Shown here: positions 59,062 to 59,154 of the stretch, in pieces
Numbering within the stretch: the first letter of the stretch is position 1
Layout: each line of letters starts with the position of its first letter
Source of the DNA: Bacilli bacterium
Lineage (GTDB): Bacteria; Bacillota_I; Bacilli_A; RFN20; CAG-826
Length of the DNA: 64,000 bases
Assembly: GCA_024408295.1 (NCBI GenBank)
Contig: JAKSVE010000004.1
Coordinates: 396 to 64,395 of the forward strand
Reading direction: 5' to 3'
The notes under the pieces: generated by a model
What the model was told of the DNA's origin: nothing
The model's database searches: none
The model's input: only the letters and a program-made list of their open reading frames with translations
Position numbers and translations under genes: made by a program

Positions 59062-59154
59062 GGGTGCGCAAACTTTTTCGAAGGGTACGCAGTTTTACAA
59101 GCAAAGGTGCGTAAGATTTTGATAGGGGTGGGTGAAAAATCCGTGAGGGTGCGT
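59062..59154 (+). repeat. Iteron-like array A: five GGGTGCGT-type motifs at 21-22-bp spacing
   Basis: GGGTGCGC 59062, GGGTACGC 59083, AGGTGCGT 59105, GGGTGGGT 59126 and GGGTGCGT 59147, all read directly from the sequence. Confidence 0.7.

What the first reader, a model, noticed from the sequence alone, without database searches (positions are those of the whole stretch)
59062..59154. Iteron-like array of five GGGTGCGT motifs phased at 21-22 bp (array A)
Motif starts at 59062, 59083, 59105, 59126 and 59147 give spacings of 21, 22, 21 and 21 nt, which is two helical turns. Spacers are AT-rich and unrelated to one another. The array lies in a 520-nt non-coding gap downstream of the ABC genes, and its last unit is the first 8 nt of the 148-nt direct repeat. 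Phased short direct repeats of this kind are characteristic of cooperative DNA-binding sites such as plasmid Rep iterons, partition centromeres and some repressor arrays. Nothing annotated in the window explains them. Candidate binders encoded nearby are the TetR-like, XRE-like and wHTH proteins.
Basis: seen in the sequence. Interest (0 to 1): 0.7.

Follow-up and report, generated by a model that had tools for sequence, protein, structure and literature searches.

The report
Phased repeat arm beside recombination site
The five phased GGGTGCGT-like boxes are real and form the conserved flank of a widespread, undescribed repeat element that bounds mobile gene cassettes next to tRNA genes, probably a protein-binding arm beside a serine-recombinase crossover site and not a plasmid origin.

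Summary
The array is real but degenerate. Only the box at 59147 is an exact GGGTGCGT; the other four have 1-2 mismatches. The 21/22/21/21 phasing far exceeds chance: the longest phased chain is 5, against at most 3 in 300 shuffles.

It is not a plasmid iteron set. The window is a chromosome of an uncultured Bacilli MAG. I collected 92 distinct homologous sites from metagenomes, viral contigs and prophages. Each has up to 6 phased boxes (20-21 bp), followed in fixed register by a conserved terminal element. That element has TTGTATCAAA, ATAGGT, nine variable bases and an invariant CA.

In the main subtype an inverted TTTGATACAA lies exactly 52 bp away, so CA sits at the dyad centre. Sequence modules switch around that CA. 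tRNA 3' ends (..CCA) replace the array-plus-terminal-element as left partner of the same downstream terminator module.

The sites separate co-oriented, unrelated accessory genes. They also close prophages that carry paired large serine recombinases.

Box sequence differs by lineage (GGGTGCGT, TGTACGCA, GGGTGCCA and others) but is uniform within an array.

Best reading (0.45): phased binding sites for an element-encoded DNA-binding protein beside a serine-recombinase attachment site. No binder or recombination event has been shown.

The parts
59062..59154 (+). Array A: five phased boxes at 59062 (GGGTGCGC), 59083 (GGGTACGC), 59105 (AGGTGCGT), 59126 (GGGTGGGT) and 59147 (GGGTGCGT). This is a degenerate copy of the family array.
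   Evidence: family consensus
59147..59183 (+). Terminal element A: last box, then S1 TTGTTTCAAT (59157-59166), ATAGGT (59167-59172), a variable inner part, and the invariant CA at 59182-59183 (predicted crossover dinucleotide).
59184..59294 (+). Right-hand module R (type 2). It has a terminator hairpin (59196-59225) plus T-run, and a second hairpin (about 59259-59282). Its last 27 nt are identical to the 3' end of the TetR gene at copy B.
63305..63373 (+). Array B: four boxes at 63305 (GGGCGCGT), 63326, 63346 (both GGGTGCGT) and 63366 (GGGTGCAT), with spacing 21/20/20.
63366..63402 (+). Terminal element B, with S1 at 63376-63385 and CA at 63401-63402.
63403..63513 (+). Second copy of module R (terminator 63415-63444). 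It overlaps the last 9 codons of the convergent TetR gene.
50440..50515 (+). tRNA-Ala(CGC). Its 3' ..CCACCA end occupies the same position relative to module R as the terminal element does.
50516..50562 (+). R-like trailer of tRNA-Ala. Its terminator hairpin (50528-50557) is homologous to the hairpins at 59196 and 63415.
50692..58901 (+). Cargo block 1, lying between tRNA-Ala and array A: AbiEi-like protein (50692-51333), XRE HTH (51305-51928), cysteine-peptidase-like protein (51941-53548) and two ABC/FtsX fusion proteins (53606-56347, 56352-58901).
   Evidence: in L006 the AbiEi-XRE pair follows a terminal element instead of the tRNA
59425..63246 (+). Cargo block 2, lying between the two sites: a secreted 760-aa cysteine-peptidase-like protein and a 510-aa protein. 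GC is about 50%, against about 36% upstream.
   Evidence: homologous block in L005
63487..64000 (-). TetR-family gene, convergent on site B and cut by the window end.

Best explanation
Array A is the outer arm of a composite site-specific recombination site. The site has three parts:
1. Up to six head-to-tail boxes at 20-21 bp (two helical turns).
2. In fixed register, the left half-site TTGTATCAAA-ATAGGT-N9.
3. An invariant CA, where left and right sequence modules are joined.

In the main subtype the right half carries the inverted TTTGATACAA at a fixed distance. This gives a 52-bp dyad with CA at its exact centre, which is the geometry of a large-serine-recombinase attP.

Each mobile unit is read as [right module R - cargo genes - array - terminal element]. 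Units accumulate head to tail downstream of a tRNA gene, whose ..CCA end serves as the alternative left partner. The window carries two such junctions (59147-59183 and 63366-63402) behind tRNA-Ala. Both are of hybrid type, with R being the tRNA-type terminator.

The boxes are proposed to bind an element-encoded, sequence-specific DNA-binding protein on one face of the helix, three turns from the crossover. That protein would control or mark the recombination site, much as arm-type, Xis or res accessory sites do.

Shown here: the anatomy, conservation, register, module switching around CA, the association with paired serine recombinases and tRNA genes, and lineage-specific box variants.

Inferred: that CA is a crossover point, that the boxes act as DNA and not RNA, what binds them, and what binding does.
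For: 1. Family size and search independence. There are 92 distinct sites. They came from three searches that make different prior assumptions: a three-box pattern, the recombinase protein and the terminal-element pattern.
2. Fixed register. The last box always abuts S1. Spacing is 20 (72 cases) or 21 (60 cases).
3. Dyad geometry. The inverted S2 lies at offset exactly 52 in 27 of the 29 arrays that have a good match (>=8 of 10) at offsets 51-53, although the inner sequence cannot be aligned between them. C36 and A37 are invariant at the dyad centre, with variable neighbours.
4. Module switching. Pairs that share the left part but not the right diverge at positions 37-40 in 9 of 15 cases.
5. 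tRNA equivalence. tRNA-Leu, -Ser, -Gly and -Ala are followed directly after CCA by the same R module that follows the terminal element. The AbiEi-XRE block follows tRNA-Ala in the window but a terminal element in L006.
6. Cargo. Flanking genes are unrelated accessory genes. The upstream gene is co-oriented in 41 of 46 cases.
7. Recombinases. Paired large serine recombinases diverged to about 50% identity all lie 0.3-8.6 kb upstream of an array in the same orientation. In prophages found from the recombinase alone, all six distinct sites carry 3-6 boxes.
8. Box variants. GGGTGCGT, TGTACGCA, GGGTGCCA, GGGTGCTA, GGGTGCGA, GGGTACGA and GGGTGTAG each occur, uniform within an array. A control seed gave no chains.
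9. No RNA signal. RNAalifold predicts only two short helices in the array, with no pair changed on both sides, and no Rfam family matches.
10. Candidate binder. Similarity of the small HTH protein follows box type in L134, whereas its recombinases group with the other box type.
Against: - Serine integrases are described as needing no accessory proteins or auxiliary DNA (PMC5499577), so an arm of this kind has no precedent.
- No recombinase and no HTH homologue is found in the 64-kb window.
- The window's own sites lack the inverted S2. They are hybrid, and array A is decayed (4 of 5 boxes imperfect).
- 8 of 22 sites in the sample not selected for arrays have only one box, so the array is dispensable.
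- The link between HTH and box type fails for L128 and rests on six loci.
- Arrays lie on the sense strand downstream of genes, so they are probably transcribed.
- The ATAGGT blocks on the two sides of the dyad are direct repeats, not inverted.
- Arrays are mosaic between loci with the same cargo (L014 against L131). A single crossover at CA does not explain this.
- Some module breakpoints fall at positions 26 and 33.
Confidence: 0.45

Rival explanations
1. RNA-level element. The array and terminal element are transcribed as the 3' region of the upstream gene. S1 (UUGUAUCAAA) pairs with S2 as an antiterminator, competing with the S2:S3 terminator. An RNA-binding protein bound to the GGGUGCGU repeats, the last of which abuts S1, decides read-through into the next gene. 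This would resemble TRAP or PyrR attenuation.
For: - The upstream gene is co-oriented in 41 of 46 cases.
- The S2:S3 hairpin has a T-run and compensatory changes at 6 pairs.
- S1:S2 forms standard pairs in 94.6% of cells, and many deviations are G-U.
- The two helices are mutually exclusive.
Against: - S1:S2 covariation does not exceed the shuffles (39-171 of 500 shuffles reach the observed values).
- A constant 52-nt span and an invariant central CA are not needed for an RNA loop.
- The window's sites and many others have no S2, yet keep their arrays.
- The downstream gene is convergent in about 30% of cases.
- The predicted helices in the array have no pair changed on both sides.
- No Rfam family matches.
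Confidence: 0.15
2. Operator array of a promoter. The reverse complement of S1 (TGATACAAT) is an extended -10 element that fires leftward into the array. S2 is the same element firing rightward. The boxes would be head-to-tail operators for a repressor that blocks the leftward transcript, which is antisense to the cargo gene.
For: - Promoter-like matches lie on the minus strand across both window sites: TTGGCA-17-TACAAT (10 of 12) at 63403-63375, and TTGGCA-17-AACAAT with TG at 59184-59156.
- The -10-like bases are among the invariant columns.
- Lineage-specific boxes are typical of operator/repressor pairs.
Against: - These are consensus matches only.
- The -35 part spans the junction and is not conserved in the family.
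- In about 40% of sites the C-to-T variant removes the TG.
- This does not explain the invariant CA or the equivalence with tRNA ends.
Confidence: 0.12
3. Iterons after all. The boxes plus the A/T-rich terminal element would be a replication origin, or a partition or packaging site, used by the excised circular cassette or phage in trans.
For: - The form matches iteron sets: three to five direct repeats at two helical turns next to an A/T-rich stretch.
- Box variants are lineage-specific.
Against: - No Rep, Par or terminase family was found among the flanking and island proteins I scanned.
- The element recurs every 1-4 kb within one island.
- It is always locked in register to the dyad site and CA.
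- The context is chromosomal.
Confidence: 0.07
4. By-product without its own function. The boxes would be tandem partial duplications of the outer edge of the recombinase site, made by slippage or unequal exchange and kept uniform by gene conversion.
For: - Box number varies from 1 to 6.
- Arrays are mosaic at box boundaries (L014 against L131).
- Array A in the window is decaying.
- 8 of 22 sites in the unselected sample have a single box.
Against: - Boxes stay intact while spacers diverge: 177 of 195 boxes are exact, although part of this follows from the search pattern.
- In samples not selected for the box, arrays of 3-6 perfect boxes of other variants occur.
- Phasing is held to 20-21 bp.
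Confidence: 0.12

Closest known systems
Large serine recombinase attachment sites (A118/LI, Bxb1, phiC31 integrases)
   Same: The site is about 50 bp with outer inverted motifs and a non-palindromic central dinucleotide where the halves are exchanged. Recombinase genes lie at the prophage end (site sizes and the crossover dinucleotide from PMC5499577).
   Different: Known serine integrases need no auxiliary DNA. Here a phased array of up to six boxes abuts one half-site. The recombinases come in pairs. Several different tRNA 3' ends appear to be used as targets.
SCCmec-type composite islands with CcrA/CcrB (from my own knowledge)
   Same: Both have two adjacent large serine recombinases of about 440 and 530 aa. 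Both have tandem cargo units in one orientation, separated by short direct repeats. Both include units without their own recombinase.
   Different: SCC elements target the 3' end of rlmH, not tRNA genes, and have no phased box arrays. No homology to the Ccr proteins was tested here.
Arm-type and accessory sites of other recombination systems: lambda attP arms with Int/Xis sites, P2 Cox boxes, res subsites II/III of Tn3 and Sin, cer/psi accessory sequences (from my own knowledge)
   Same: Repeated binding sites lie on one side of the crossover core, in fixed helical register, and are bound by element-encoded or host proteins that set directionality or topology.
   Different: Those systems use tyrosine recombinases or small resolvases. 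Their repeat spacing is usually one turn or irregular. No binder is known here.
Integron gene-cassette arrays (attC sites)
   Same: Co-oriented, unrelated accessory genes are each followed by a conserved recombination-type repeat. The repeats are homogeneous within a host and cause assembly breaks.
   Different: There is no attC-type hairpin and no IntI tyrosine recombinase. The anchor is a tRNA gene, not attI.
Plasmid Rep iterons and partition centromeres
   Same: Short direct repeats phased at about two helical turns next to A/T-rich DNA.
   Different: The DNA is chromosomal, with many copies per island. No Rep or Par family was found among the proteins I scanned. The arrays are locked to a dyad site with a central CA.
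Tycheposons of Prochlorococcus (bioRxiv 10.1101/2020.12.28.424599; seen only as a search hit)
   Same: tRNA-linked genomic islands are discussed in a paper that also mentions large serine recombinases.
   Different: I did not read the paper, and I know of no phased arrays in those elements. The host phylum is different.

Membership tests
Plasmid Rep iterons / replication origin | Located on a replicon next to its initiator (rep) gene | tested here: not met
   The window is chromosomal, with DnaX, SecA and UvrB. No Rep family was found among the island proteins scanned or the flanking proteins of relatives.
Plasmid Rep iterons / replication origin | One origin per replicon | tested here: not met
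   There are two arrays 4.2 kb apart in the window, and three per 3-8 kb in L005, L010 and L123.
Partition centromere (parC/parS type) | Adjacent parA/parB- or parR-type genes | tested here: not met
   No Par family was found in the Pfam, NCBIfam or PADLOC scans of neighbouring proteins.
Large serine recombinase attachment site | A site of about 40-50 bp with imperfect dyad symmetry | tested here: met
   S1 and S2 are 10-nt inverted repeats spanning exactly 52 bp in 27 sites. The window's two sites are hybrid and have the left half only.
Large serine recombinase attachment site | A conserved central crossover dinucleotide shared by partner sites | tested here: met
   CA is invariant at the dyad centre in 28 of 28 aligned sites. 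It is also present at both window sites and at the tRNA ends.
Large serine recombinase attachment site | Left and right halves found in different combinations joined at the centre (attP, attB, attL, attR) | tested here: inconclusive
   All three junction types occur: terminal element-CA-R, tRNA-CA-R and terminal element-CA-unique flank. Breakpoints cluster at positions 37-40, but some fall at 26 and 33.
Large serine recombinase attachment site | A cognate recombinase gene in the same element | tested here: inconclusive
   Recombinase pairs are present upstream of arrays in L070, L128, L131, L134, L143-157 and others. None is present in the window.
Large serine recombinase attachment site | Recombination demonstrated between the sites | not testable with these tools
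   This needs read-level junction analysis or biochemistry.
Large serine recombinase attachment site | A simple site with no auxiliary DNA | tested here: not met
   A phased array abuts the left half-site in 74 of 92 sites. The rule that no auxiliary DNA is needed comes from PMC5499577.
Arm-type / accessory recombination sites | Repeated sites on one side of the core in fixed register | tested here: met
   The last box always lies at positions 0-7 and S1 at 10-19. Spacing is 20-21 bp. All boxes share one orientation.
Arm-type / accessory recombination sites | An identified protein that binds the repeats | not testable with these tools
   There is only a lead. Similarity of the HTH/Cys-rich ~130-aa protein partly tracks box type, with one exception, L128.
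Integron attC | An imperfect palindrome that folds as a single strand, with an IntI tyrosine recombinase | tested here: not met
   The boxes are direct repeats and the predicted helices have no covariation support. The associated recombinases are serine type.
Transposon end with multiple transposase sites (Tn7, Mu, IS21) | An inverted copy of the array at the other end of the element | tested here: not met
   No reverse-orientation boxes or terminal elements occur in any of the 20 mapped loci. The IS21-like element in L018 has its own, unrelated ends.
Known RNA family (Rfam 15) | A match to a covariance model | tested here: not met
   Only tRNA-Ala reaches the gathering score. Nothing credible appears at E<=10 over the element.
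Terminator/antiterminator attenuator | Two mutually exclusive helices supported by covariation | tested here: inconclusive
   S2:S3 is supported. S1:S2 is complementary but does not exceed the shuffles. S2 is absent from the window's sites.
CRISPR or other guide arrays | Long identical repeats with unrelated, acquired spacers | tested here: not met
   The boxes are 8-10 nt. Spacers are 12-13 nt and conserved by position across loci. TRF finds no array here.

The most novel reading that the evidence does not exclude
An integron-like cassette platform driven by paired large serine recombinases and anchored at tRNA genes, in Acholeplasmataceae-like Bacilli and their phages. Each cassette would end in a composite site made of a phased box array plus a 52-bp attP-like dyad. 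The box sequence would be a specificity code read by cognate small HTH/Cys-rich proteins, so that different elements sharing one recombinase type can be excised or captured selectively.
Probability: 0.25. Interest if true: 0.8.

Novelty: new variant of a known kind. Interest (0 to 1): 0.62.

Why it matters
If the reading holds, there are three consequences.

- Serine integrases are valued as genome-engineering tools because their sites are simple. A natural family with an added phased accessory arm and lineage-specific boxes would point to a new layer of control, possibly a programmable one.
- The element marks cassette boundaries in tRNA-linked islands of poorly known, wall-less or reduced Bacilli. 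It gives a sequence handle for finding mobile cargo there, including defence genes, toxins, peptidases and resistance genes.
- It would be a cassette-accretion system in Bacilli, where I know of no classical integrons.

Even on the conservative reading, it is a widespread conserved non-coding element. It matched no Rfam family and appeared in none of the papers I searched.

Tried and rejected
- **Exact scans with the hairpin.** The 32-nt hairpin found nothing in viral contigs and only L005 in genome contigs.
- **First terminal-element patterns.** They found nothing in viral contigs or metagenomes. In hindsight they may have been too strict or those lineages absent. The three-box pattern succeeded.
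- **BLAST of the gap** against plasmid and phage records gave no match.
- **Exact-protein look-up** of the 760-aa protein found nothing on record.
- **Relatives through the ABC protein.** The nearest are only about 50% identical and have no array.
- **Transposon-end idea (Tn7, Mu, IS21).** Rejected. No inverted arrays occur anywhere, and the IS21-like element in L018 has its own repeats.
- **tRNA-like or structured RNA reading of the array.** There is no acceptor pairing by inspection, no pair changed on both sides in the predicted helices, and the window fold z-scores are -1.4 and 0.0.
- **CRISPR-like or guide-array reading.** Rejected, because spacers are conserved by position.
- **A common flanking gene family.** None was found.
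- **S1:S2 covariation.** Not significant.
- **HTH-to-box correlation.** Suggestive but broken by L128.
- **Literature.** Sequence strings and keyword searches found nothing that describes the element.

Full report
**1. The observation.**
The five boxes start at 59062, 59083, 59105, 59126 and 59147, spaced 21, 22, 21 and 21 nt apart, in the 523-nt gap after the second ABC gene. Only the last is an exact GGGTGCGT. The others read GGGTGCGC, GGGTACGC, AGGTGCGT and GGGTGGGT.

A second array lies at 63305 (GGGCGCGT), 63326, 63346 and 63366 (GGGTGCAT), spaced 21/20/20. The last box of each array begins a 148-nt direct repeat, 59147-59294 / 63366-63513, 95% identical.

The longest chain phased at 20-22 nt is 5 at <=2 mismatches and 4 at <=1 mismatch. 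In 300 dinucleotide-preserving shuffles of the window the maxima were 3 and 2.

**2. Context in the window.**
The window is chromosomal, with DnaX, SecA, UvrB and an Opp permease. It comes from an uncultured 'Bacilli bacterium' MAG, GCA_024500545.1.

The layout from tRNA-Ala onward is:
- tRNA-Ala, 50440-50515.
- An AbiEi-like protein, an XRE protein, a cysteine-peptidase-like protein and two ABC/FtsX fusions.
- Array A.
- A two-gene block of about 50% GC, against about 36% upstream: a 760-aa secreted peptidase-like protein and a 510-aa protein.
- Array B.
- A convergent TetR gene.

The 148-nt repeat has two parts. The first is the last box plus AATTGTWTYAAWATAGGTAATCAYTGCCA. The second is a strong terminator hairpin with a T-run (59196-59225 and 63415-63444). 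The same hairpin follows tRNA-Ala directly after its CCA (50528-50557).

**3. Relatives.**
A 7.5-kb MAG contig (L005) is syntenic and carries three sites of one, two and five boxes between unrelated small genes. It also carries a serine-recombinase fragment that abuts a tRNA-Ala 3' remnant followed by the hairpin.

It also retrieved 15 viral loci. Some are unrelated plain tandem repeats. About fifty are true homologues. They share the continuation AATTGTATCAAAATAGGT..., which was not part of the query.

In total I collected 92 distinct sites. No Rfam family matches, and none of my paper searches found the element.

**4. Anatomy of the family.**
In the 52 GGGTGCGT-type arrays, the boxes number 1-5 and spacing is 20 (72 cases) or 21 (60 cases), rarely 19 or 22. 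The unit consensus is AG|GGGTGCGTaAattt.....AG. Across all 92 sites the count runs from 1 to 6. Spacers are conserved by position, for example aaaactagtcaa / gatttaccctcaa / aaattttgctag.

The terminal element, numbered from the G of the last box, is laid out as follows:

| Positions | Feature |
|---|---|
| 0-7 | last box |
| 10-19 | TTGTATCAAA (S1) |
| 20-25 | ATAGGT |
| 26-34 | variable |
| 35-36 | CA |

In the main subtype an inverted TTTGATACAA (S2) starts at position 52. This holds exactly in 27 of the 29 arrays that have a good match (>=8 of 10) at offsets 51-53, even though the bases between are not alignable. In a gapless alignment of 28 such sites, C36 and A37 are invariant. They lie exactly at the centre of the S1/S2 dyad, and their neighbours vary.

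S2 also forms a hairpin with a following S3 and a T-run. That hairpin shows compensatory changes and is a genuine RNA terminator.

**5. Evidence that CA is a junction of modules.**
- Pairs of sites that share the left part but not the right diverge at positions 37-40 in 9 of 15 cases. Some diverge at 26 or 33 instead.
- L045 combines the left part of L036 with the right part of L131.
- Genes for tRNA-Leu, -Ser, -Gly, -Leu and -Ala are followed directly after ..CCA by the same right-hand module R (TATAACAAGCATAGGTTTGATACAA..., then the terminator) that follows the terminal element elsewhere. A tRNA 3' end and the array-plus-terminal-element are thus interchangeable left partners.
- The AbiEi-XRE block follows tRNA-Ala-CA-R in the window, but follows terminal element-CA-R in L006.
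- tRNA genes lie 0.8 to about 8 kb upstream of arrays in the same orientation in six loci.
- Many contigs break just before the first box or about 150 nt after the terminal element. That is the behaviour expected of a repeat found in many contexts.

**6. Cargo and recombinases.**
The genes on either side are unrelated accessory genes, including Fic, McrBC, trypsin-like, GrpB, PfkB, acyltransferases and HTH proteins. The upstream gene is co-oriented with the element in 41 of 46 cases, and the downstream gene in 26 of 37. All elements within a locus point the same way.

The only recurrent neighbours are pairs of large serine recombinases of about 435 and 526 aa, each with Resolvase, Recombinase and Zn-ribbon domains. 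They lie 0.6-3.7 kb upstream of the array in L070, L128, L131 and L134. The pairs are diverged to about 50% identity, so these are independent instances.

I then started from the recombinase alone. Homologues at 68-86% identity sit at prophage ends in this order: tail genes, holin, an HTH/Cys-rich protein of about 130 aa, a SHOCT-like 89-aa protein, recombinase A, recombinase B, variable cargo, an array with terminal element and CA, and finally flanks that differ between contigs. One homologue is labelled Acholeplasmataceae.

**7. Box variants.**
The prophage arrays found from the recombinase mostly use TGTACGCA, not GGGTGCGT. They have 4-6 boxes at the same spacing and in the same register.

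A search with the terminal-element pattern alone, which does not select for arrays, gave 22 distinct viral sites. Fourteen of them have two or more phased boxes. Their variants are GGGTGCGT, GGGTGCGA, GGGTGCCA, GGGTGCTA, GGGTACGA, GGGTGTAG and TGTACGCA, each uniform within its array. A control seed, the S1 8-mer, never chains.

Uniformity within an array combined with differences between lineages is what a cognate recognition partner would produce.

One lead on the partner comes from L134. Its recombinases are 70-86% identical to those of TGTACGCA phages. Its HTH protein, however, is 58-60% identical to those of GGGTGCGT loci and only 36-41% identical to those of TGTACGCA loci. L128 does not fit this pattern. 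The window has no homologue of the HTH protein or of the recombinases.

**8. Interpretation.**
Four features together match a large-serine-recombinase attachment site: a 52-bp dyad, an invariant non-palindromic central dinucleotide, module exchange around it, and the recombinase association. Published sites are about 50 bp for attP and 40 bp for attB, with a central crossover dinucleotide (PMC5499577).

I read the cargo units as [R - genes - array - terminal element], stacked behind a tRNA gene. On that reading the window's two junctions are hybrid, with the terminal element joined to a tRNA-type R.

The array is an extra. Known serine integrases need no auxiliary DNA. Its fixed register fits same-face binding sites for a sequence-specific DNA-binding protein, working like arm-type, Xis or res accessory sites:
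- The box centre is about 31 bp, or three helical turns, from CA.
- The period is two helical turns.
- All boxes share one orientation.
- The predicted helices in the array have no covariation support.
- The box variants are lineage-specific.

This last step is inference, and I give it 0.45.

**9. Rival readings and open points.**
- *RNA attenuator (0.15).* S1:S2 would act as an antiterminator against the S2:S3 terminator, with the boxes as a protein-binding platform. It is not excluded. However, S1:S2 covariation is not significant, and the constant span, the invariant CA and the sites lacking S2 speak against it.
- *Operator array (0.12).* The reverse complement of S1 looks like an extended -10 element, and promoter-like matches lie on the minus strand at both window sites.
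- *Classical iterons or partition sites (0.07).* These are unlikely.
- *A slippage by-product (0.12).* This cannot be dismissed for decayed copies such as array A.

Three observations remain unexplained:
- Arrays are mosaic at box boundaries between loci with the same cargo (L014 against L131).
- 'Empty' units exist in which a new array follows CA after only 0-12 nt (L012, L031, L099, L125, L151, L159).
- The R copy at 59268-59294 contains 27 nt identical to the TetR 3' end.

**10. Verdict.**
The plasmid and partition analogies and the proposed local binders are not supported.

The array is the degenerate local copy of the outer arm of a widespread, undescribed composite element. That element bounds mobile cargo next to tRNA genes and closes prophages that carry paired serine recombinases.

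Noticed in passing
window 59068 (end of locus L001): A Logan contig from SRR17543908 that carries the identical ABC gene ends exactly inside the first box of array A (..tttcaggggtgcg). This may reflect a branch in the assembly graph, meaning population heterogeneity that starts at the array, or simply low coverage.
   Followed up: no
window 59156-59184 and 63375-63403, minus strand: Promoter-like matches lie on the minus strand: TTGGCA-17-TACAAT (10 of 12) and TTGGCA-17-AACAAT with TG. 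The -10 part is the reverse complement of S1 and the -35 part spans the CA junction. A promoter here would fire leftward into the array.
   Followed up: partly
window 59268-59294 against 63487-63513: The right end of the 148-nt repeat at copy A reproduces the last 8 codons and stop of the TetR gene found at copy B, with no TetR gene present at A. L005 shares the same junction, GCGCCTC|ggttttttctg, so the event predates the split of the two strains.
   Followed up: partly
window 59295-59500 and L005 5979-6180 (minus strand): The promoter region and signal peptide of the 760-aa protein are 89% identical to those of an unrelated 123-aa protein in L005, after which the two coding sequences diverge. 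A conserved 5' region with a variable secreted protein resembles variable surface-protein loci of mollicutes.
   Followed up: no
window 51941-53548 and 59425-61707: Two paralogous secreted proteins match NCBIfam Mplas_Cys_pep (putative cysteine peptidase), below the curated cut-off. One lies in each cargo block, next to two ABC/FtsX fusion transporters.
   Followed up: no
window 59001-64000: GC rises from about 34-36% in the ABC genes to 48-53% in the two-gene block between the arrays. This fits foreign origin for that block.
   Followed up: partly
L018 9300-11700: An IS21-like element (transposase of 505 aa plus ATPase of 255 aa) has its own multiple terminal repeats (GGTGGTCAATTTCAT) and is inserted 0.5 kb upstream of an array. 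It is unrelated to the boxes.
   Followed up: yes
L159 about 2000-2320 (minus strand): Three terminal elements lie within 200 nt, each preceded by its own box variant (GGGKGCGT, GGGTGCTA, GGGTACGA). These are tandem 'empty' units with different box types side by side.
   Followed up: no
L125 1333-1360 and L151 about 12620-12650: Fragments of tRNA 3' ends about 25 nt long (T-loop to CCA), not full tRNA genes, lie 12-13 nt upstream of an array. They are the size of a recombinase half-site.
   Followed up: partly
L128 223-561 (minus strand): The 112-aa protein just upstream of the array has a weak match to bAvd, the accessory protein of diversity-generating retroelements (E = 9e-6, below the curated cut-off).
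   Followed up: no
L005 (CALCUH010000145.1): This contig is 89-95% identical to the window's Bacilli locus but is binned in a 'Bacteroidales' MAG. It is probably misbinned.
   Followed up: no
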